From: an uncultured Planctomycetales bacterium
GTDB taxonomy: Bacteria > Planctomycetota > UBA1135
Length of the DNA stretch: 64,000 nucleotides
Assembly: GCA_964584805.1 (NCBI GenBank)
Contig: CAZPAY010000009.1
Span: forward strand, 12,293-76,292
Direction: 5' to 3'
Shown: one piece after another, positions 23,324 through 50,689 of the stretch
Numbering within the stretch: position 1 is the stretch's first letter
Layout: the number at the start of each line of letters is the position of its first letter
Made by a program: the position numbers and the translations under genes
Notes under the pieces: model-generated
The model's input: only the letters and a program-made list of their open reading frames with translations
Databases searched by the model: none
Told to the model about the DNA's origin: nothing

Positions 23324-25652
<2,329 letters not shown>

Positions 25653-30918: not shown

Positions 30919-31926
30919 ATGACACCAATGCGACTCGCCTTCATCCTCTTGCCCGCCCTAACTTGCCTCACGCTTTTGCCAGCATGCGGTGGCCTAGAAG
31001 ACCAAGAACTACAGTTGCTCGATGCATACAAGAACCGTGCACAGATTTATTACGAGGCCAAGCGTTTTGAGGCAAGCCGGCAACAAGCGCTTCTTGGTCT
31101 TGACCTAGCACCAGACGACCCCGTGCTCAACCACACCCTCGGCAGGGCACTCCTTGAGATGCGGTCCTTGGGCAAAATTGTTGACGCTCGGCCCTTCCTC
31201 ATCAAAGCTTACGATTTAAAACCTGACTACCGTACAGCCTATTCTCTCGCAGAATTCCACCAGCGCTACGGAGTTTTCTTGCGCGACGAATCTATTGGCA
31301 TCCAACAGTCTCTTGAAGCCTACCCCGAATCTGATTCCGAGAAGCGAGTGAGCCTGGAAGAGCGATCGAGCAAGCAAGAAACGATTGCAAAAGAACACTG
31401 GGCGGAAGCACTGACCCTCCTTGATGTCGCTCTTACGGAAGCACCCGAATTCCTACTTGGCCTCCAAATGGCCGCAATGACCCATTCCCTGCTTGGTCAT
31501 GACGGTATCGCTCTTGAACAGCTGGACCGCATCCTTTCCATTCTTGCCGAATCCAAGACTTACAAAAATCGTCAACTAGCCACCAACACTTCTCTCAGCC
31601 TTGCCCAAGAGCAAAAAATTCGCGCTGACTTATTGGACGATATGGGACACGAAATTGGAGTTCGTTTTGCACGCGCGGCGATTTTTAAGAGTCGGAATGA
31701 TTTGAAAACAGAAGAGTTGGAATACAAGTTTATCCTTCAGCTTAACCCACGCAGCCCGGAAGCATTTTTCGGCCTAGGTATGTGTCTCTACGAACAAGGA
31801 AACTTACCCTCCGCAAAATCCAATCTTAAGTCTTTCATCAAACACTCTGAACTGGATTTAGAATCCCAATACACAAAGCAAGCCATGCGCATCATTATGG
31901 AGTCAAATGATGCCGCCACTCAGTAG
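30919..31926 (+). CDS. TPR-repeat lipoprotein
   Basis: Signal plus lipobox LTLLPACGG, followed by repeated TPR-like helices (AQIYYEAKRFEASRQQALLGLDLAPDDP and others). Confidence 0.7.
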   Translation: MTPMRLAFILLPALTCLTLLPACGGLEDQELQLLDAYKNRAQIYYEAKRFEASRQQALLGLDLAPDDPVLNHTLGRALLEMRSLGKIVDARPFLIKAYDLKPDYRTAYSLAEFHQRYGVFLRDESIGIQQSLEAYPESDSEKRVSLEERSSKQETIAKEHWAEALTLLDVALTEAPEFLLGLQMAAMTHSLLGHDGIALEQLDRILSILAESKTYKNRQLATNTSLSLAQEQKIRADLLDDMGHEIGVRFARAAIFKSRNDLKTEELEYKFILQLNPRSPEAFFGLGMCLYEQGNLPSAKSNLKSFIKHSELDLESQYTKQAMRIIMESNDAATQ

Positions 31927-31939
31927 CGATTGGACTTTC

Positions 31940-33010
31940 TTAGCGATTAAAATGAATCGCAAGCACGCGGACAAGCCCACCGCGCAAAACTCGAATTTGA
32001 GTGTGAGCAGGGGCGTCTTGAATCGTTTGCTGGATGTGCTGAAGGAGCGCCTCGCCCACTTGATCATGAGAATCTGCAACATCAGGCAAAAACTGATGCC
32101 CAGCCAAGCCAAGCAAAACATCGCCGGGCAAGACGCCAGCTTGGGCGGCAGGCAAACCAGGGTCGACTTCTTCAACGAGCAAAGTTGCTTGAGCACTTCC
32201 CTTGCTGTGGCGTAGCTGCATCAGCACCCCAAGCTGGCGGCGGCCAGGAAGCAAGTGACCGAGTTGATGCGGGAATGCATCAAGCAGACGGCCAATGGGG
32301 ACAGCAAAAGTAACCGATGCTGAAGATAAGAATAAACCGACTAAACGGCCGTGCCGATCAGCCAGCAAACCGCCCCCGTCCCCTGGATTGAGCTCATTTG
32401 TAACTTGAAGCAATCCCTCTCGCTTGCCCTTTTTGCGCTCAAAACCCGAAATAAAGCCCAAACCAAGGCTGCAGCCATAGCCAAAAGCATTACCGAGAGA
32501 AACGACGACATGCCCAACTCTCTGCTCCGATTCAGGCGACACCAAAGGGCCAGTTAGCCCAAGCTTGGGTGCTCGCAGAAGGAGGAAACCGTAGGTTTCG
32601 TCGTAACCCATGCGCTGAGCGGAAAAACTTTTGCCATCAAAGCGGATGACCTCGGCAGAAGTGAAACGCTTTTTTGCTGGGCCTGGTGCGAGCAAAAAAC
32701 CACTCTTGCCCATAACAACGCCAGAAACTAATACCGTTTGGGGCTTTACTCCTGGCCCAGCATTTACTGGCGGTGCAATTTGATAGCGAACTTGAACGAC
32801 CGCACGATGCAGCCCCTCGTAGAGCTTCACCAACTCGTCTTCCATAGCGCCAAGCGCACTAAAGCCAACCGTCATCACGAGCTCGCCGGGCAATTTCAGC
32901 TCAGCTTCGGGCTGAACCCAATCTGACTTGTCAGGAGTAACGGGCAGCAGGCCTTCCTGTGGAACGGCCGGCAAGAGCCATGCGGCCATGCAAAGCAAGA
33001 AGGCGCTCAT
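31940..33010 (-). CDS. Periplasmic HtrA/DegS-fold protein with PDZ domain, catalytic triad apparently lost
   Basis: Signal peptide present. Fold motifs are conserved (SLGNAFGYGCSLGLGFISG, VTFAVPIG), and a PDZ domain is present (DPGLPAAQAGVLPGDVLL). By-eye alignment to DegP puts Pro111 at the His position, Gly141 at the Asp position, and Gly212 (GDGGG instead of GNSGG) at the Ser position. Confidence 0.7.
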   Translation of the reverse strand: MSAFLLCMAAWLLPAVPQEGLLPVTPDKSDWVQPEAELKLPGELVMTVGFSALGAMEDELVKLYEGLHRAVVQVRYQIAPPVNAGPGVKPQTVLVSGVVMGKSGFLLAPGPAKKRFTSAEVIRFDGKSFSAQRMGYDETYGFLLLRAPKLGLTGPLVSPESEQRVGHVVVSLGNAFGYGCSLGLGFISGFERKKGKREGLLQVTNELNPGDGGGLLADRHGRLVGLFLSSASVTFAVPIGRLLDAFPHQLGHLLPGRRQLGVLMQLRHSKGSAQATLLVEEVDPGLPAAQAGVLPGDVLLGLAGHQFLPDVADSHDQVGEALLQHIQQTIQDAPAHTQIRVLRGGLVRVLAIHFNR

Positions 33011-33018
33011 CGGAAAAC

Positions 33019-33591
33019 CTAGAACCGCCGGCGGCGAACGGAAACGGGCACAGCCGCACCGGCTTCATTGCCTTGAACGGGCAAATCGCGGAGATAGGCG
33101 CCATTTTCAAGCAAGAAGCGCCGAAGCTCTGTATCTGGGACCTCGACCAAGGCCCCAGAAGGGCTCGCAACAATGGGCTCGATCTCTGCCGAAGGGCTTG
33201 CCTCCATTGCAGCAACAGGCTGGCCAATCGTGGCAGTCGGGTGGAGTGCTTGGGGCATACTAGGGATCAGCAAGTTCAAACCGACCGCAATGGCAAGCAT
33301 TGCAGCCACAGCTGGCAACCACGCCGAAAGGCGGTGGCGCCAAGGGCTCTCTAAAGAAGCGAGTGCATCTGCCGCATCAAGCCTAGGCTCAAGGTCGACC
33401 CAGATGCCACCAACAGCTGGCTCAAGCAAGGCCTGCATTTGCATCGCGTCGAAAGAAGTCTGGAAAGACTGGCTCTCGCTTGCACAACTCGCGCAATTTT
33501 GGAGGTGAGCCTCAACGGCCACAGCCTCGTCAAGGGAAAGATCGCCACCAATATGCAGTGGTAAAAGTTGAAGAGTTGCTTCGCAGGTCAT
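33019..33591 (-). CDS. Zinc-binding (zf-HC2) transmembrane anti-sigma factor
   Basis: H-x3-C-x2-C motif (HLQNCASC), one TM helix (LSAWLPAVAAMLAIAVGLNLLI), and a periplasmic tail ending RRRRF. It overlaps the sigma gene by 4 nt. Confidence 0.75.
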   Translation of the reverse strand: MTCEATLQLLPLHIGGDLSLDEAVAVEAHLQNCASCASESQSFQTSFDAMQMQALLEPAVGGIWVDLEPRLDAADALASLESPWRHRLSAWLPAVAAMLAIAVGLNLLIPSMPQALHPTATIGQPVAAMEASPSAEIEPIVASPSGALVEVPDTELRRFLLENGAYLRDLPVQGNEAGAAVPVSVRRRRF

Positions 33592-34328
33592 AGGGCTTCA
33601 CCACCTTCTTCCGTGCCAAGCTGGCGTTCCCAGTGCTCACGGAAAAGTTTACGGGCATGGTGCAGACGCCAGCGGACGGTGCCAGGCGTTGTGCCAACGG
33701 CATCGGCGATATCGCCACAGGACATGCCCTCGAGGTCGCGCATGGCTAAGACCTCACGGAAAGAATTAGGGAGGGCTTCCAAAATACGCCCCACTAATTG
33801 GCGACGCTCGCGCGCGCTTACTTGAGCGGCTGGCCCTGGTTCACTAGCCCCCCAATCTCCCACCAGCTCACCAGCGCCATGAGGCGTGCCCGGCTTAAGG
33901 CGACGCAGCGTGTCAACGCAATGATTGCGAAGAATGCGGAAATACCAAGTAGGGAACTTACGCTTGGGGTCGAATTTGTCCCGACTTGCGTAAACCTTGA
34001 GAAAAGACTCTTGGACGGCCTCGCGTGCAACCTCGGTGCGACGCAAAATGCCGCGAGCCGTATGGAGGGCCCGGATCTCGTAACGCTCAACGAGTAACCG
34101 GAAGGCATCGCGCTCACCTTGGCAGGTGAGAGCCATAAGCTCTTCGTCGGAAAGCGAGGCCCAACCGTGGTCGGCTGGCTCAACTTCAGCCAGAACGCCG
34201 TCGGCCAGAGAAGTCTTGGCTGCAGCGGATGAAACGAGTTTAAATGCGGAACTACCCATGGTGTCGCTCCTGTTTACGCGCGGGGACCTCGTCGAGTTAG
34301 AGGAATTTCCAGATTCCTTAAACATCAA
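33588..34328 (-). CDS. ECF-type RNA polymerase sigma factor
   Basis: Region 2 (FRLLVERY...VQESFLKVY...FPTWYFRILRNHCVD) and region 4 HTH (LPNSFREVLAMRDLEGMSCGDIADAVGTTPGTVRWRLHHAR). The N-terminal extension and start are uncertain (TTG 34328 or ATG 34325). Confidence 0.85.
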   Translation of the reverse strand: MMFKESGNSSNSTRSPRVNRSDTMGSSAFKLVSSAAAKTSLADGVLAEVEPADHGWASLSDEELMALTCQGERDAFRLLVERYEIRALHTARGILRRTEVAREAVQESFLKVYASRDKFDPKRKFPTWYFRILRNHCVDTLRRLKPGTPHGAGELVGDWGASEPGPAAQVSARERRQLVGRILEALPNSFREVLAMRDLEGMSCGDIADAVGTTPGTVRWRLHHARKLFREHWERQLGTEEGGEAL

Positions 34329-35443
34329 CCCTCGCCATGGATTTCGCTCGGAGACCCCACGCGGGAATCGGAGCTATCAAGCCTAGATTCGGGCGTGTCG
34401 TCGCGAGCGGGTGAAGTCTCGGTGCCCATGCGCGAGGCAGAATCAAGCGCTCGATGCTCGACAGAACTCTGCACCTCGGCGATATGGCGGAACTTACGGT
34501 ACCGTGCTTCCAGCAGTACATCCATAGGCACTTCAACGAGTTGGTCAAGCCAAGATTCAATCTTGTCTTTCACAATTTGCATCGCGTCTTTCGGGTGAGC
34601 ATGTGCACCCCCGATTGGCTCCGGGACGATTTCATCCACAATTCCAAAACCGAGCAAATCATCAGCAGTTAACTTAAGAGCATCTGCGGCCTTTTCTTTT
34701 CCGTCAGCAGAGTGCCACAAAATCGAAGCACAACCCTCAGGAGAAATAACGGAATACCATGAGTTGTCCATCATGGCGACCTTGTCGCCAATCGCGATGC
34801 CGAGCGCCCCACCCGAGCCGCCTTCGCCAATGACGAGACAAACGATGGGTACTTTAAGACCAAACATCTCGTGGATGTTTTCAGCAATGGCGCGAGCTTG
34901 GCCACGCTCTTCGGCTGCGACACCAGGGTATGCGCCTGGCGTGTTAATCAAACAAACAACCGGCAAGCCCATACGCTCGGCCAACTTCATTTTGCGCAAA
35001 GCCTTGCGATAGCCCTCGGGGTGGGCAGAACCAAAATTACACGCCAAGCGCTCTTTGGTGTCGCGACCCTTCCGCTGGCCAACCAACAAAACCTTATGCT
35101 CGCCAATCGTGGCCAAGCCCGTCGCCATCGCGGTGTCATCGCCAAAAACGCCGTCACCGTAAAGCTCGACCCAGTCATCACAGATTGTCGAGATGTAATC
35201 ACTTGTCAGCGGGCGATTCGGATGGCGCGCAACCTGCACACGATTCCATGATGACAACTCCGCATAAATCTCATTCGTCAAACGCTCAAGGCGCTCGCGA
35301 TAAAAAGTAAGCTCTTCGCTTAGGTCATGCGTGGTCTGGGCCGACAGCTCCTCCAACTCAATGAGACGGGTGCGGACATCCTCAATCGGCTGCTCAAACG
35401 GCAGAGCCGCAGGAGGGGAGATTATCGTTTTCTTTTTGGCCAT
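34325..35443 (-). CDS. accA: Acetyl-CoA carboxylase carboxyltransferase alpha subunit
   Basis: Contains FGSAHPEGYRKALRKMKLAERMGLPVVCLINTPGAYPG and GEGGSGGALGI. It carries a C-terminal extension of about 45 aa. Confidence 0.95.
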   Translation of the reverse strand: MAKKKTIISPPAALPFEQPIEDVRTRLIELEELSAQTTHDLSEELTFYRERLERLTNEIYAELSSWNRVQVARHPNRPLTSDYISTICDDWVELYGDGVFGDDTAMATGLATIGEHKVLLVGQRKGRDTKERLACNFGSAHPEGYRKALRKMKLAERMGLPVVCLINTPGAYPGVAAEERGQARAIAENIHEMFGLKVPIVCLVIGEGGSGGALGIAIGDKVAMMDNSWYSVISPEGCASILWHSADGKEKAADALKLTADDLLGFGIVDEIVPEPIGGAHAHPKDAMQIVKDKIESWLDQLVEVPMDVLLEARYRKFRHIAEVQSSVEHRALDSASRMGTETSPARDDTPESRLDSSDSRVGSPSEIHGEG

Positions 35444-46631: not shown

Positions 46632-48257
46632 ATGCGAACTCCTAGCACTCTTGCGCTTGCGGGCATCTTCTGCCTCGTGCCAACCGCGCCATCCCTGGCC
46701 GCGCAAGACCTTCTTTGGTCCACCGAAGGCGAAAGCACCTACGAAAATGTAGGCAAGGCCTTGGCCGCACTTGAAGATTTTGATGGCGATGGCGTCCGTG
46801 ATTTGATTCTTGGCGCTCCGGGGGCAAAAAATGCAACCGGTCAAACCGTCGGGCAGGCTCGAATTGTCTCGGGAGCTACCGGACAGATTCTCCACACCCT
46901 TGAGGGCAGCCAAGCCTACGCATCTTTCGGCAGCGTGATTTCCTCAGGAGTCGATTGCAACGGCGACGGATGGCCCGATTTTGCAATCTCCGCGACTGGC
47001 TACGACACGGCTTCAACAGCCAATGCTGGGCAAGTCACGCTCTATTCGGGGCGTACGCTGCAAGTCATCCGAACTTGGGAAGGCGGCTCATCCAACACCG
47101 AATTCGGCTCGGCGCTTGCGCTCATTGACGACATCAACGGCGACGGGCTGGGCGATATCCTTTGTGGCGCACACAAGGGTGCGACTTACGGGGGCAACCT
47201 GAATGGCCTTCTCTTTGCTTGGTCTGGCGCAGACGGCTCGACCATCCATCAACTTGAGGGCAAAACCGTCGGCGATCATTTCGGTTGGGCGATTGCCGCC
47301 CTCGGCGACACCAACGGCGACGGCCGGCCTGAATTTGTCGTCGGCGCGCCCTACGCTAACCCAGCAGGCGAGGCTTATCTCATCAATGGCGCAACAGGCG
47401 CCACCCTTCATACGATTTATGGTGCTCAAAATGATGACCGTTGGGGTCGCTCTGTTTGCGCCGCGCCAGACCTTGATGGCGATAATCGCCCAGACTTCAT
47501 CGTTGCCTCTCCGGAAGTGACGATTCATTCAATGGACGACACGGGCCAATTTCAGATTTACTCTTCTGCTACGGGGGCTGCCCTGCTTCAAGTAGATGGT
47601 GAAATCCCTGGTGGTTTTTTTGCAGACACTCTTGCGCTCACCGGAGTTGATAATGATTTCAACGGTGATTTTTTCCCTGACCTTCTCATCGGGATGCCTC
47701 GGCGCGACCCCAATTCCCTGGCCGATGCAGGCACCGTGCAACTTTGGTCACTGAATCCACCTGAACTCTTGCATAGCTTTCACGGCAATGAAAGCGGTGA
47801 GCTGCTCGGGGCATCGGCATGCACTGTCCCTGCAGCAACGGGCTCTCTCTATTCCAAGTTTTGGCTCGGGGCGCCTGGTGCGACCAGCTCTTCCATGCGC
47901 CAAGCAGGCCGCTCAGATTTCTGGCGAATCACACTTCCGCCATTCTTGATGAGTTCGCCGCTAAGCGCTGGCACCCTCGCCAGTTTCGACCTATTCCGTC
48001 TTCTGCCGCAATCAGAAGCCACGATTCTCGCTTCATTCAAGGGCAATGGCCCCACACCGACGCCGTATGGATGGATTGATTTGAGCCCACCCTTTCAAAT
48101 ATTGCCCCCCCAAGTTTCCACGGTTAACGGCCAAATGAGCCTGTCCGTGTACTTGCCACCAAGCCTGCAAGGTAGGCCTGTTTGGCTTCAAGGAGCCAAC
48201 CGATGGCCTAGTGGCGAAATCCTTTTCAGCAACCCTCTCGCAAAAGCCATCCAGTAG
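46632..48257 (+). CDS. Secreted FG-GAP (integrin-alpha-like) repeat protein
   Basis: Signal peptide plus six Ca-binding-type repeats ([88 protein letters not shown]). Confidence 0.8.
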
Positions 48258-48278: not shown

Positions 48279-48355
48279 GCGCCCGTAGCTCAGCTGGATA
48301 GAGCACCGGACTTCTAATCCGACGGTCGAGGGTTCGAATCCTTCCGGGCGCGCCA
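48279..48355 (+). tRNA. tRNA-Arg (anticodon TCT)
   Basis: Cloverleaf read by eye. The acceptor gcgcccg/cgggcgc pairs, the anticodon loop is cTTCTAa, the T-loop is ggttcgaatcc, and CCA is encoded. Confidence 0.9.
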
Positions 48356-48375: not shown

Positions 48376-50448
48376 GTGGCCTCCCTCCTTCCCTTCCTAA
48401 CCCTGCTCCTTGCCCAATACCCTGCTCCAACGGGGCATGCCGGCTATACCGAAGCAGGTGATTTCATTTTCCTCACCGATGAGGTGATGCAAATCGAGGT
48501 CACGATGGCTCCTTCCGACCTTGACTGGCTCTTGGCCAACAAAGACACGCGCGTCTACAAGTCATGCACCGTGCGCCTTTTGAATTCGGTAATGGACGAG
48601 ACCATTCTTGATGTTGGCATCCGTCCTCGCGGTAATAGCGCACGCGACGCCAAGAAAAATCCGTGGAAGTTTTCTTTTAATGAATTCGTTCCTGGCCGCG
48701 AAATCCATGGTTTGCAAAAAATGAATCTGGGTGGCGATGCGCCTGACCCAAGTTTGGCGCGCTCGACGGTTGGTTTTTATCTGCAACGCTCGATGGGAGT
48801 GCCTGCGCCTCGAAATCATTACGCATGGATCACCATCAATGATGGGTTGCTTGTTGACGGCTTGTATATTCATGCCGAGCAAATCGACGACGAATTTGTT
48901 GATGCGTGGTTTGGCAATGAAGACGGGGTGCTCTACAAATGCCGCCACAAAGATGTTGCCGCCAACTTGACTTGGAAATCCCCTGGCACGCCCGCCACTT
49001 ACGCGGCTCTCGAAGCTTATGAGGAAGAGCTACAAGGTGGGGATTACGCTCCGCTGGCTGACTTCATTGAGTTCTTGAAATTTTCCGATGATGCTACTTT
49101 TGCGGCAGAAATTCACCAGCATTTCAATATTGACGGCTTCCTTCGGGCGCAGGCTGTTGACATGGTTACGGGCCAATGGGATGGCTACTGGATTGGCGGC
49201 AACAATTACGATTTGTACCTCAACACCAAGACAAACCGCTTTGAATACATCCCTTGGGATTTAGACCACGCTTTTGGCTTAGATTATTGGATTTTCCCTT
49301 TCTTGTTTGGCACTAATTTCGCGCGCCGCGCTTATGACGGTTGGGGTGCGCATGGTTTTGGCGCACCCGCAATTTTGCTTACCCGGCTACTTGACATTCC
49401 ACAATACGAAGCGAAGCTGCAGCAATATTCGCGAGATTTGGTGACGGGGCCTTTTCACCCCTCCCGCCTTGGCCCATTCCTCGATCACCTTGAGTCGCTG
49501 ACGACTCCCCTCGCATTCACAGGTTCTTTTTCTGGCTCATCCATGGACAACGGGTGGACGAATACCAAAAACCAAGAGGCCTACTATTTCCCAGATAAGT
49601 ACAAAAGTCTTCAGAATCCAGACACTTGGGGTATGCACCCGTTTATTAAAGAGCGCACAGATTATGTGCTCTCGCACTTCCCTGTGCCGGCTTCCCCACC
49701 CGCGTTACGCATCAATGAGTTGGTCGCGAAAAACACGAGCATCCTTGCCGACGAAACAGGCACCTACGAAGACTATGTCGAGCTCTTCAACAACTCCGAC
49801 ACAACATTCGACGCAAGTGGCTACACGCTCACAGATGAGCCTGGCCTATCCGCAGGTTGGGAAATCCCAATGGGCACCACAATTGCCCCTTACACCACAC
49901 TCTTGATTTGGTGTGACAATGACGGTGCCGATGGGCCTCTTCATGCAAATTTCAAGCTGAGCGCGTCGGGTGACGGCGTTTACCTTTTCGCACCGAATGC
50001 GGCTGGATGTTTCCTCGTTGACTCCATGCTTTTTGATGCCCTCGGCGATGACCTCGCGATGGCGCGCTACCCCGATGGCGGCTCCTTCTCACAAATAGGT
50101 GTTGCACCGACACCTTTGGCCAGCAATGTACCAGCGGGTTTCTTACTTGCGCCCCTCGGAAATTGCGAGTCGCCGATGCAAATAGCCGTGACCGGTGCCA
50201 CGCCCCACGGCCTCATTGCCATCGTGGCGGGGATGAACACGGGCTCCTTCACCATTCCCGCAGGCCTTGCTTGCGCGGGCACCCCACTTGGCCTTGACGC
50301 GAGCGCCTTCCTCGCAGCCACCGGCGCGGCTGACGGCTCTGGCACACTACTCTTGCCGGCGACCCCTCCGGATTCGGCTTGCGGGGTGGTGCAACTCCAG
50401 GCCCTTGAGCTGGGCTCTTGCGCAACGACCCCCACAACGGGGCTTTAA
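48376..50448 (+). CDS. CotH-family (atypical kinase fold) secreted protein with lamin-tail-like domain
   Basis: CotH motifs [10 protein letters not shown] and [29 protein letters not shown]-like segment [10 protein letters not shown]...[21 protein letters not shown]. The GTG start lies 20 nt after tRNA-Arg. Confidence 0.75.
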
Positions 50449-50517: not shown

Positions 50518-50595
50518 GGTGGACATAGCTCAGTTGGTTAGAGCACCAGATTGTGGTTCTGGGGGTCGGGGGTTCAAATCCCCTTGTCCACCCCA
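50518..50595 (+). tRNA. tRNA-His (anticodon GTG) with encoded G-1
   Basis: Acceptor gtggaca/tgtccac pairs. An extra 5' G lies opposite the discriminator C. The anticodon loop is tTGTGg, and CCA is encoded. Confidence 0.9.
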
Positions 50596-50604
50596 TTCGG
50601 GTTC

Positions 50605-50689
50605 GCGAGAGTGGCGGAATTGGCAGACGCGCTAGATTTAGGATCTAGTATCGAAAGATGTGGGGGTTCAAGTCCCCCCTCTCGCACCA
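50605..50689 (+). tRNA. tRNA-Leu (anticodon TAG)
   Basis: Acceptor gcgagag/ctctcgc pairs. The anticodon loop is tTTAGg, the variable arm is long, and CCA is encoded. Confidence 0.9.

What the first reader, a model, noticed from the sequence alone, without database searches (positions are those of the whole stretch)
31940..33591. ECF sigma / zinc anti-sigma operon ends in an HtrA-fold PDZ protein with no catalytic triad
The third gene (8-nt spacer) encodes a signal-peptide protein with clear HtrA/DegS fold motifs and a PDZ domain. By-eye alignment to DegP gives LLAPGPAK for VVTNNHVV (His to Pro). It gives YGFLLL for SDIALI (Asp to Gly) and PGDGGGLL for RGNSGGAL (Ser to Gly). DegS-type proteases normally start anti-sigma cleavage after their PDZ domain binds C-terminal peptides. 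An inactive copy hard-wired to an anti-sigma gene suggests a sensor, adaptor or protector role instead. The anti-sigma periplasmic tail ends in ...RRRRF-COOH, a possible PDZ ligand.
Basis: partly seen in the sequence, partly recalled or inferred. Interest (0 to 1): 0.7.

Follow-up and report, generated by a model that had tools for sequence, protein, structure and literature searches.

The report
Dead HtrA protease guarding an anti-sigma factor
A planctomycete stress-signalling operon encodes a sigma factor, its membrane inhibitor, and a protease look-alike that has lost all three catalytic residues but keeps an intact peptide-binding domain. The inhibitor always ends in the kind of residue that domain binds, which suggests a new way to control envelope-stress signalling.

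Summary
On the minus strand lie an ECF sigma gene (33588-34259), a zf-HC2 single-pass anti-sigma gene (33019-33591, overlapping the sigma gene by ATGA) and, 8 nt later, a 356-aa HtrA-fold protein with one PDZ domain (31940-33010).

Rigorous alignment puts Pro111, Gly141 and Gly212 at the DegP His105, Asp135 and Ser210 positions. This is not decay:
- All 33 clusters (50% identity) of the family lack His and Ser, while 'NPGDGGG' and the PDZ carboxylate-binding loop are conserved.
- dN/dS is about 0.06.
- The order accA, sigma, anti-sigma, pseudo-HtrA is kept in every Planctomycetota locus examined, behind a conserved ECF-type promoter motif (CYAAC-N17-CGTA).

The new result is the anti-sigma C-terminus. 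The terminal residue is F, Y or W in 18 of 22 distinct linked anti-sigmas, and L or M in the other four. It is aromatic in 0 of 23 unrelated zf-HC2 anti-sigmas.

More distant loci carry the same sigma, anti-sigma(...F/Y), pseudo-HtrA trio followed by an active HtrA.

Best reading, inferred rather than shown: the dead HtrA sits in the 'RseB slot'. It binds the OMP-like anti-sigma tail through its PDZ domain and gates proteolysis of the anti-sigma factor. I rate this a new variant of the DegS/RseA/RseB paradigm.

The parts
34275..34300 (-). ECF-type promoter-like motif CTAAC-N17-CGTA, 15 nt upstream of the sigma ATG. It lies in the 65-nt accA-sigma spacer.
   Evidence: The motif CYAAC-N17-CGTA occurs exactly once per ~12-kb locus, always at this position, in 12 loci. 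There are 2 matches in the 64-kb window against 0.28 expected. AAC/CGT is the classic ECF -35/-10 signature (established knowledge). Function is inferred.
33588..34259 (-). ECF (group 4) sigma factor, 223 aa. It has a ~55-aa N-terminal extension and a conserved acidic C-terminal tail.
   Evidence: Pfam Sigma70_r2 and r4_2; TIGR02937 scores 87 bits against a 42.9 cut-off. The conserved start 'MG' comes from the orthologue alignment. Identity to orthologues is 55-89%.
33019..33591 (-). Class I (zf-HC2) single-pass anti-sigma factor, 190 aa. Its start overlaps the sigma stop by 4 nt (ATGA).
   Evidence: Pfam zf-HC2 3e-09. The overlap was read in the sequence. Orthologues sit upstream of every pseudo-HtrA.
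33484..33507 (-). H29-x3-C33-x2-C36 zinc-binding motif of the anti-sigma domain.
   Evidence: H29, C33 and C36 are invariant in 22 distinct orthologues.
33262..33330 (-). Predicted transmembrane helix of the anti-sigma factor (residues ~88-110).
   Evidence: This is the Kyte-Doolittle 19-residue maximum (2.15), at the same position in all orthologues. No dedicated topology predictor was run.
33109..33150 (-). Conserved periplasmic motif LVEVPDTELRRFLL (consensus L-x-x-V-P-x-x-E-L-x-x-F-L). It is a candidate docking or cleavage segment.
   Evidence: This is the only conserved block in the otherwise divergent periplasmic region. Its role is inferred.
33022..33024 (-). Codon of the C-terminal Phe190 of the anti-sigma factor, the proposed PDZ ligand residue.
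   Evidence: The terminal residue is F, Y or W in 18 of 22 distinct linked anti-sigmas and L or M in 4 of 22. It is aromatic in 0 of 23 unrelated zf-HC2 anti-sigmas. The background for long ORFs in these loci is 8%.
31940..33010 (-). Pseudo-HtrA, 356 aa. Layout: N-terminal hydrophobic helix, ~40-aa disordered linker, trypsin-like domain (~71-238), one PDZ domain (~256-353).
   Evidence: Pfam and NCBIfam; PDB sequence search; AlphaFold2 model with pLDDT 85.7 and Foldseek hits to DegP, AlgW, DegS and MucD at about 1e-22; dN/dS ~0.06 against the 77%-identical orthologue.
32963..33010 (-). Short hydrophobic N-terminus (MSAFLLCMAAWLLPAV), a probable atypical signal peptide or membrane anchor.
   Evidence: A hydrophobic N-terminus is present in nearly all family members and is canonical (MKRLL...AFA) in L014 and P0082. 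It is modelled as helix 2-12. Not tested with a signal-peptide predictor.
32678..32680 (-). Pro111 at the catalytic His position (DegP His105).
   Evidence: 0 of 33 family clusters have His here.
32588..32590 (-). Gly141 at the catalytic Asp position (DegP Asp135).
   Evidence: 29 of 33 clusters have Gly and none has Asp. One MAG orthologue, L009, does have Asp.
32375..32380 (-). Asp211-Gly212 of the invariant 'NPGDGGG' loop. Gly212 replaces the catalytic Ser (DegP Ser210); Asp211 replaces the Asn of GNSGG.
   Evidence: Ser position is G in 28 of 33 clusters and never S; D211 is present in 33 of 33.
32225..32242 (-). PDZ carboxylate-binding loop R257-R-Q-L-G-V262. It aligns with DegP PDZ1 R262-G-E-L-G-I.
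   Evidence: Alignment to DegP. Across 33 clusters: R257 in 24, L260 in 28, G261 in 33.

Best explanation
This is an autoregulated three-gene envelope-signalling operon.

The ECF sigma factor is held at the inner membrane by a zinc-binding single-pass anti-sigma factor. That anti-sigma has a short, mostly disordered periplasmic tail that ends in an aromatic residue, like the C-terminus of an unassembled outer-membrane protein.

The third product is an exported HtrA/DegS-fold protein. It cannot hydrolyse peptide bonds by the serine-protease mechanism, because it has no His, Asp or Ser. It does keep a ligand-competent PDZ domain.

I propose that this pseudo-HtrA occupies the functional slot that RseB holds in E. 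coli. It would capture the anti-sigma C-terminus in its PDZ groove, with the conserved VPxxELxxFL segment possibly lying on the dead protease domain. That would hide the tail from the PDZ-bearing proteases (a DegS-type site-1 protease, RseP, or Prc/Ctp) that would otherwise start regulated proteolysis.

When proteins with exposed hydrophobic C-termini accumulate in the envelope, they would compete for the PDZ domain. The tail would be released, the anti-sigma factor degraded and the sigma factor freed. Sigma then transcribes its own operon, which replenishes both the anti-sigma factor and the guard and so gives negative feedback.

Shown: gene identities, loss of the triad, conservation of the linkage, conservation of the terminal residue and of the PDZ loop, and the conserved promoter motif.

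Inferred: export, tail-PDZ binding, the protective sign of the effect, and the competing signal.
For: - Triad loss holds across the family (0 His and 0 Ser in 33 clusters), with invariant NPGDGGG. The gene is under purifying selection.
- The fold is HtrA plus PDZ.
- The PDZ carboxylate-binding loop is conserved and aligns with DegP R262-GELGI.
- The anti-sigma terminal residue is aromatic in 18 of 22 and hydrophobic in 22 of 22 linked sequences, although the preceding residues diverge freely. Unrelated zf-HC2 anti-sigmas are aromatic in 0 of 23.
- The closest non-aromatic relative, P0212, has no HtrA-like neighbour. P0207 ends in ...VRF and does have one.
- The genes are tightly coupled: a 4-nt overlap, then an 8-nt spacer. 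The order is conserved in all loci.
- A conserved AAC-N17-CGTA motif lies upstream of sigma, which implies co-expression with negative regulators as in rpoE-rseABC.
- Other lineages place a DegS-like active HtrA immediately after the pseudo-HtrA. This ties the pseudo-enzyme to the site-1 proteolysis step.
- The DegS-PDZ/OMP-tail and RseB-guard paradigms are established (PMC8103513, PMC10202637, PMC8545111).
Against: - There is no direct evidence of binding.
- The N-terminal export signal is atypical, being short with no basic n-region, so periplasmic location is not secure.
- Only the last residue of the tail is conserved. There is no Y-x-F-type consensus at positions -1 and -2.
- Where the pseudo and active HtrA genes overlap, a hetero-oligomeric adaptor role fits as well as a guard role.
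- No active HtrA or RseP gene lies in this 64-kb window. The proteases being guarded against are therefore assumed.
- The terminal-residue statistic ignores shared ancestry among the sequences.
- The contexts of most 'unrelated' control anti-sigmas were not examined.
Confidence: 0.4

Rival explanations
1. Adaptor or activator subunit. The pseudo-HtrA forms mixed oligomers with an active DegS-type HtrA, or otherwise recruits it. Its PDZ domain tethers the anti-sigma tail, or it activates the partner allosterically. It would then promote site-1 cleavage rather than prevent it.
For: In several distant loci the pseudo-HtrA gene is followed directly by an intact HtrA gene. In L033 the two overlap by 4 nt, and the pattern recurs in L038, L040 and L041. 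HtrA proteins oligomerise through their protease domains (established knowledge). There is a precedent: the pseudoprotease MamO activates MamE-dependent proteolysis (PMC4794232).
Against: In the window's own clade no active HtrA lies in the operon or the 64-kb window. Placing a positive regulator inside a positively autoregulated sigma operon would favour runaway activation. Constitutive tethering alone does not explain how the system responds to a signal.
Confidence: 0.25
2. Regulon effector only. The protein is a protease-dead, DegP-like holdase chaperone for envelope or outer-membrane proteins. It is co-transcribed with its sigma factor, as mucD is with algU or htrA with M. tuberculosis sigE. 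It would have no direct contact with the anti-sigma factor.
For: The HtrA fold and PDZ domain are retained. DegP keeps chaperone activity without its catalytic Ser, and HtrA genes are known members of ECF operons and regulons (established knowledge; PMC8103513). The gene is co-transcribed from an ECF-type promoter.
Against: This does not explain why anti-sigma factors encoded next to pseudo-HtrAs, and only those, end in an aromatic or hydrophobic residue. It also does not explain why the pseudo-HtrA always sits immediately after the anti-sigma gene, including in loci that carry an active HtrA as well.
Confidence: 0.2
3. Cryptic enzyme. The protein still catalyses hydrolysis, or another reaction, using non-canonical residues such as the invariant Asp211 or the near-invariant Ser230 and Glu57.
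For: Asp211 is invariant (33 of 33) and sits next to the former nucleophile position. The NPGDGGG loop is more strictly conserved than a mere scaffold would require.
Against: No conserved His, Cys or Lys candidate lies at the triad positions. The His position is occupied by P, I, V, F, L or K and the Asp position by G. No known S1-fold peptidase works without a Ser or Cys nucleophile at this position (established knowledge).
Confidence: 0.05
4. Decaying pseudogene, or a sequencing or assembly artefact of a normal htrA gene.
For: All three catalytic residues are missing.
Against: The reading frame is intact, and the same substitutions occur in 33 sequence clusters and more than 20 independent contigs. 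dN/dS is about 0.06. Family-specific motifs are invariant.
Confidence: 0.01

Closest known systems
E. coli sigmaE / RseA / RseB / DegS (with RseP) envelope-stress pathway
   Same: Both have an ECF sigma factor plus a single-pass anti-sigma factor in one autoregulated operon. In both, a periplasmic third gene product is encoded right after the anti-sigma gene (the 'RseB slot'). Both involve an HtrA-fold protein with one PDZ domain, and in both hydrophobic or aromatic C-termini are the currency of signalling (PMC8103513, PMC10202637).
   Different: - The HtrA-fold protein here has no catalytic triad and is operon-encoded, whereas DegS is active and encoded elsewhere.
- There is no RseB homologue.
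- The anti-sigma domain is zf-HC2, not RseA_N.
- The aromatic C-terminus belongs to the anti-sigma factor itself, not to OMPs.
- NCBIfam DegS scores 64 bits against a cut-off of 423.
P. aeruginosa AlgU / MucA / MucB / AlgW with MucE and MucD
   Same: An HtrA-family gene (mucD) sits in the ECF operon. A dedicated envelope protein (MucE) has an aromatic C-terminus that binds the PDZ domain of an HtrA protease to control anti-sigma cleavage (PMC8545111, PMC10202637).
   Different: MucD and AlgW are active proteases. The aromatic-tail signal is carried by a separate protein, not by the anti-sigma factor. MucB (RseB-like) is the guard.
MamO / MamE of magnetotactic bacteria
   Same: MamO is a trypsin/HtrA-fold pseudoprotease with a degenerate active site. 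It was repurposed for a non-catalytic role and acts together with an active HtrA paralogue encoded nearby (PMC4794232). The distant loci L033, L038 and L040 show the same pseudo/active pairing.
   Different: The process is unrelated (biomineralisation, metal binding through a di-His motif). There is no sigma/anti-sigma link, and the loss of the triad was independent. The NCBIfam MamE model gives only 29 bits.
M. tuberculosis sigE-rseA-htrA(-tatB) and Xanthomonas rpoE-rseA-mucD operons (recalled from memory, not checked here)
   Same: The gene order ECF sigma, anti-sigma, HtrA is the same.
   Different: Those HtrAs retain the catalytic triad and are regarded as proteases or quality-control effectors.

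Membership tests
HtrA / DegP / DegS serine endopeptidases (MEROPS S1C) | Chymotrypsin-like two-barrel protease fold | tested here: met
   Pfam Trypsin_2 1.4e-11. phmmer to DegP, AlgW, DegQ and DegS structures at 1e-15 to 1e-9. Foldseek of the pLDDT-85.7 model against PDB gives DegP 2.5e-22.
HtrA / DegP / DegS serine endopeptidases (MEROPS S1C) | At least one C-terminal PDZ domain | tested here: met
   PDZ_6 1.1e-05, below Pfam's gathering score (25.5 against 27 bits), plus PDZ and PDZ_2 hits. It aligns over DegP PDZ1 including the R-x-x-L-G-I loop. It is modelled as a PDZ fold.
HtrA / DegP / DegS serine endopeptidases (MEROPS S1C) | Catalytic triad His-Asp-Ser | tested here: not met
   Pro111, Gly141 and Gly212 occupy the three positions. 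Across 33 family clusters there is no His and no Ser.
HtrA / DegP / DegS serine endopeptidases (MEROPS S1C) | Score above the curated cut-off of a named equivalog (DegS, DegP/Do, DegQ, HhoA) | tested here: not met
   DegS 63.9 against 422.95 bits; Do family 61.2 against 416.2; all others are also far below their cut-offs.
ECF (group 4) sigma-70 factors | Sigma-2 and sigma-4 regions only, and a score above the family cut-off | tested here: met
   Sigma70_r2 and Sigma70_r4_2. TIGR02937 scores 87 bits against 42.9. No named equivalog is reached; the best is PRK11922 at 119 against 204.
ECF (group 4) sigma-70 factors | Autoregulated promoter with an AAC (-35) / CGT (-10) signature | tested here: inconclusive
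   A conserved CYAAC-N17-CGTA motif lies upstream of sigma in 12 loci. There are no transcript data, and the motif sits only 15 nt from the ATG.
Class I anti-sigma factors (zf-HC2 anti-sigma domain) | N-terminal H-x3-C-x2-C motif, encoded next to and co-oriented with an ECF sigma gene | tested here: met
   zf-HC2 3.1e-09 against a cut-off of 22.2 bits. H29, C33 and C36 are invariant. The gene overlaps the sigma gene by 4 nt.
Class I anti-sigma factors (zf-HC2 anti-sigma domain) | Single transmembrane helix with an extracytoplasmic C-terminal part | tested here: inconclusive
   There is one hydrophobic maximum at residues ~88-110 in all orthologues. No topology predictor or experiment was available.
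RseB / MucB periplasmic anti-sigma guards | Homology to the RseB/MucB fold | tested here: not met
   The third gene product matches only HtrA-type families in Pfam, NCBIfam and PDB. The resemblance is positional and functional (inferred), not family membership.
RseB / MucB periplasmic anti-sigma guards | Binds the periplasmic domain of the anti-sigma factor and blocks site-1 cleavage | not testable with these tools
   The only support is indirect: co-conservation of the tail residue and the PDZ loop.
MamO-type pseudoproteases | Homology to MamO/MamE and a surface di-His metal site | tested here: not met
   NCBIfam MamE gives 29.4 bits against a cut-off of 800. No conserved His is found in the family.

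The most novel reading that the evidence does not exclude
This may be a previously unrecognised, recurrent signalling module: ECF sigma, an anti-sigma factor with an OMP-mimicking aromatic C-terminus, a 'decoy' DegS-like pseudoprotease, and sometimes an active DegS-like protease.

In this reading the dead HtrA is the actual stress sensor. Its PDZ domain holds the anti-sigma tail until exposed C-termini of unassembled envelope proteins displace it. The freed tail then itself serves as the activating PDZ ligand for the site-1 (or site-2) protease.

Sensing would therefore work by competitive displacement at a pseudoenzyme, rather than by allosteric activation of an enzyme.
Probability: 0.3. Interest if true: 0.8.

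Novelty: new variant of a known kind. Interest (0 to 1): 0.66.

Why it matters
Regulated proteolysis of anti-sigma factors (DegS/RseA/RseB) is the textbook model for how bacteria sense damage to the cell envelope.

Here the protease fold has been kept but its chemistry deleted, in a lineage-wide and strongly conserved way. The anti-sigma factor has also acquired the very feature, an aromatic C-terminus, that normally marks the stress signal.

If the proposed tail-PDZ contact is real, it shows a second solution to the 'guard the anti-sigma factor' problem, built from a pseudoenzyme instead of RseB. It would also give a clean natural system for separating PDZ-mediated sensing from catalysis in HtrA proteins.

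The same trio recurs in other contexts next to active HtrAs. That points to a broader, unannotated class of ECF regulators. These genes are currently labelled 'S1C serine protease' or 'hypothetical' in databases.

Tried and rejected
1. Complex prediction. I built 12 orthologous pseudo-HtrA + linker + anti-sigma-tail chimeras to test tail-PDZ docking with AlphaFold2.
2. A single-sequence homologue search with the anti-sigma factor found only itself. A profile of 22 orthologues was needed.
3. Literature searches found no description of a triad-less HtrA linked to an ECF/anti-sigma pair. Neither term of the pair appears for HtrA, trypsin or PDZ in the main text of the ECF reclassification paper, and its supplements are not held. 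Two planctomycete ECF papers are not held. I therefore could not assign an ECF group number.
4. The second promoter-motif match in the window (24469-24494, +) lies antisense inside atpD, so I dismissed it as chance.
5. The convergent TPR lipoprotein was considered as a fourth component (BamD-like?). It gives only generic TPR matches. It is syntenic only in the accA-linked clade, along with ndk and the atp operon, and is absent from the other pseudo-HtrA contexts. I rejected it as part of the module.
6. A lipoprotein reading of the pseudo-HtrA N-terminus (Cys7) was rejected because the Cys is not conserved.
7. The sigma-70 promoter and terminator scan gave nothing above the shuffled expectation.
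8. The pseudogene or artefact reading was rejected on conservation and dN/dS.
Full report
**What is in the sequence.** Three co-oriented genes lie on the minus strand downstream of accA (34325-35443).
- An ECF sigma factor. The ORF is 33588-34328 from a TTG, but the ATG at 34259 matches the conserved 'MG' start of the orthologues.
- An anti-sigma factor at 33019-33591.
- A 356-aa protein at 31940-33010.

The sigma stop and the anti-sigma start overlap as ATGA.

Pfam and NCBIfam identify the three products.
- Sigma: Sigma70_r2 and r4_2, with TIGR02937 at 87 bits against a cut-off of 42.9.
- Anti-sigma: zf-HC2 at 3e-09.
- Third protein: Trypsin_2 (1.4e-11) plus PDZ. Its best named models are DegS and Do/DegP, but at about 60 bits against cut-offs above 400.

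The surrounding genes are housekeeping. On one side are purL and purQ; on the other are a convergent TPR lipoprotein, ndk and the atp operon. Further out lie purD, aminoacyl-tRNA synthetases and similar genes.

**The catalytic triad is gone.** The phmmer alignment to E. coli DegP structures (E = 1e-15) gives three pairings.
- G-F-L-L-A-P-G-P pairs with G-Y-V-V-T-N-N-H, so His105 becomes Pro111.
- D-E-T-Y-G-F-L-L pairs with D-P-R-S-D-I-A-L, so Asp135 becomes Gly141.
- N-P-G-D-G-G-G-L-L pairs with N-R-G-N-S-G-G-A-L, so Ser210 becomes Gly212.

MAFFT and hmmalign alignments with active HtrAs give the same columns.

I built an AlphaFold2 model from 33 family sequences. Its first row is P0001, which differs from the window protein only at residue 33. 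Mean pLDDT is 85.7. The model shows an N-terminal helix (residues 2-12), a disordered linker (13-51), a two-barrel protease-like domain and a PDZ domain. Foldseek places it with DegP, DegQ, AlgW, Deg1, DegS and MucD at E of 1e-22 to 1e-19.

**The pseudoenzyme is conserved, not decaying.** A word-indexed search of 5.8 billion proteins found only four close relatives, then a gap down to ordinary HtrAs. An exhaustive profile search found about 30 more clusters at 50% identity, scoring 210-570 bits, before ordinary HtrAs begin.

Counts across these 33 clusters:
- The His position is never His (P, I, V, F, L, K and others).
- The Asp position is Gly in 29.
- The Ser position is Gly in 28 and never Ser.
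- Asp211, which replaces the Asn of GNSGG, is invariant.
- The PDZ carboxylate-binding loop is retained: R257 in 24 of 33, L260 in 28 of 33 and G261 in 33 of 33. It aligns with DegP R262-GELGI.

Against the 77%-identical orthologue, dN/dS is about 0.06. This is similar to the sigma gene at 0.05, but dS is saturated, so the value is rough.

**The linkage is conserved.** The same order recurs in every locus recovered for this family: purL | accA, sigma, anti-sigma, pseudo-HtrA | TPR, ndk | atp. All genome-derived loci come from Planctomycetota MAGs.
- It holds in the contigs carrying P0002, P0003 and P0004.
- It holds in ten GTDB species genomes.
- It holds in the most distant family member, P0082.
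- It holds in several metagenome contigs.
- The anti-sigma to pseudo-HtrA spacers are mostly 5-70 nt.

About 15 nt upstream of every sigma start lies the motif CYAAC-N17-CGTA (N16 in two loci).
- It occurs once per ~12-kb locus, always at that position.
- It occurs twice in the 64-kb window against 0.28 expected. The second copy is antisense inside atpD and probably chance.

AAC/CGT is the hallmark of ECF-dependent promoters. I therefore infer positive autoregulation of a three-gene transcript. This is not shown.

**The anti-sigma C-terminus.** The anti-sigma factor has the invariant H29-x3-C33-x2-C36 motif and one hydrophobic helix at about residues 88-110. Its periplasmic region is about 80 residues long and diverges freely, apart from one motif (L-x-x-V-P-x-x-E-L-x-x-F-L) and the very last residue.

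Among 22 distinct anti-sigma factors encoded directly upstream of a pseudo-HtrA, the terminal residue is F in 12, Y in 5, W in 1, L in 3 and M in 1.

Two more upstream proteins, in L037 and L040, end in F and Y. Further family members found by profile search end in F in 8 cases and L in 1.

Two controls:
- Only 8% of 104 long ORFs from the same loci end in an aromatic residue.
- Of the 23 unrelated zf-HC2 anti-sigma factors returned by the same profile search, none ends in an aromatic residue and only one in a hydrophobic one. Fisher p is 4e-9, not corrected for phylogeny.

Two spot checks of genomic context agree with the pattern.
- P0212, the closest relative without an aromatic end, is followed by a TPR-like protein, not an HtrA.
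- P0207 ends in ...VRF and is followed by a pseudo-HtrA and an active HtrA.

**A wider module.** The profile search also pulled in other HtrA paralogues with degenerate triads ('PGD[A/T/S]GG', no His). Those I could place in context show the same arrangement in unrelated neighbourhoods.
- L033, L034, L035, L031 and L041: two secreted PDZ-only proteins, sigma, anti-sigma (...IRF or ...IHF), pseudo-HtrA, then an active HtrA overlapping it by 4 nt.
- L038: sulfatase | sigma, anti-sigma (...KYDF), a two-PDZ pseudo-HtrA, then a membrane-anchored active HtrA.
- L040: a membrane protein (...GEPY), pseudo-HtrA, then an active HtrA.
- L030 is similar.

The pairing of a dead HtrA with an anti-sigma factor ending in a hydrophobic residue is therefore recurrent, and it is often physically joined to a DegS-like enzyme. 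In the window's clade no active HtrA lies in the operon or the window.

**Mechanism.** The best-supported reading is that the pseudo-HtrA is a non-catalytic regulator of anti-sigma proteolysis. It would recognise the anti-sigma C-terminus through its PDZ domain.

I commit to the guard or decoy version, with confidence about 0.4. In this version the protein occupies the slot that RseB and MucB hold in proteobacteria (PMC10202637). It hides an OMP-like tail from PDZ-bearing proteases and is displaced by exposed C-termini of unassembled envelope proteins. Because it is co-expressed from the autoregulated promoter, it resets the system.

The main rival, at about 0.25, is an adaptor or activator role in a mixed complex with an active HtrA. 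The overlapping pseudo/active gene pairs favour this, as does the MamO/MamE precedent (PMC4794232). An effector-only chaperone role (about 0.2) does not explain the tail conservation. Cryptic catalysis and pseudogene decay are unlikely.

None of these readings has been tested physically.

**Caveats.**
- Export of the pseudo-HtrA rests on a short hydrophobic N-terminus without a basic n-region. Some orthologues have canonical signal peptides.
- Topology, binding, lack of activity and the sign of regulation are all inferred.
- The sequences are not phylogenetically independent.
- The ECF group number could not be assigned.

**Comparison and novelty.**
- The parts belong to known superfamilies (ECF sigma, class I anti-sigma, HtrA fold), and ECF, anti-sigma, HtrA operons are known.
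- The third protein fails the defining test for an HtrA peptidase, which is the triad, and falls below every equivalog cut-off. It is not an RseB homologue either.
- I found no description of a triad-less HtrA linked to an anti-sigma factor, or of anti-sigma factors with conserved aromatic C-termini.
- I rate it a new variant of a known kind, of above-average interest.

Noticed in passing
window 33588-34259 (-); orthologues in L001-L015: The ECF sigma factor has a ~55-residue N-terminal extension before region 2, with a conserved start motif (MG-x-x-A-[FL]-[KR]-L-[VI]). It also has a strongly conserved acidic C-terminal tail (L-G-x-E-E-G-x-x-E-L). N-terminally extended ECFs have been noted in Planctomycetes (PMC8103513). 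The function here is unknown.
   Followed up: partly
L033 882-1646 and 1660-2532; L041 2302-3069 and 3082-4032: In the distant sigma, anti-sigma, pseudo-HtrA, active-HtrA loci, two secreted PDZ-only proteins (one and two PDZ domains) are encoded immediately upstream of the sigma gene. That gives up to five PDZ domains per module.
   Followed up: no
proteins P0091, P0092, P0099, P0105, P0106, P0108, P0114, P0120: Another set of 450-545-aa two-PDZ HtrA-like proteins keeps the Ser ('PGDSGG') but lacks the His, and usually the Asp as well. The one context retrieved (P0105, L039) was too short to show neighbours.
   Followed up: partly
proteins P0076 (1293 aa), P0171 (1646 aa), P0084, P0133: Very long proteins match the pseudo-HtrA profile in 7-14 separate stretches, which suggests tandem arrays of HtrA-like or PDZ units.
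   Followed up: no
window 31940-33010 (-), residues ~228-232 and ~305-322: Compared with most orthologues, the window protein and its 77%-identical relative lack the 20-40-residue insertion after 'LTSL' (the L2-loop region). They instead carry a ~15-residue insertion in the PDZ domain (FLPDVADSHDQVGEALL). That segment has low model confidence.
   Followed up: no
window 30919-31926 (+): A convergent TPR lipoprotein (lipobox LPAC-G) ends 13 nt from the pseudo-HtrA stop. The two genes overlap in L001. It is syntenic throughout the accA-linked clade but gives only generic TPR matches.
   Followed up: partly
window 24469-24494 (+): This is the second exact match to the promoter motif CYAAC-N17-CGTA. 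It lies antisense inside atpD (23324-24802, minus strand) and is probably chance.
   Followed up: yes
window 34260-34282 (-): An AGGAG sequence lies 7 nt before the sigma ATG, directly after the putative -10 CGTA. Purine-rich sequence occupies the same place in the orthologues. Either the leader is very short or the transcription start lies further upstream than the motif implies.
   Followed up: no
window 48279-48352, 50519-50592, 50605-50686 (+); 48376-50448 (+); 46632-48257 (+): Three tRNA genes flank a 690-aa CotH-kinase plus lamin-tail-domain protein. An FG-GAP repeat protein lies next to them.
   Followed up: no
window 32912-32914 (-), residue 33 of the pseudo-HtrA: The database protein P0001, reported as 100% identical, has Leu where the window encodes Gln at residue 33. 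The window is therefore a near-identical variant of the deposited contig. The AlphaFold models are of P0001.
   Followed up: no
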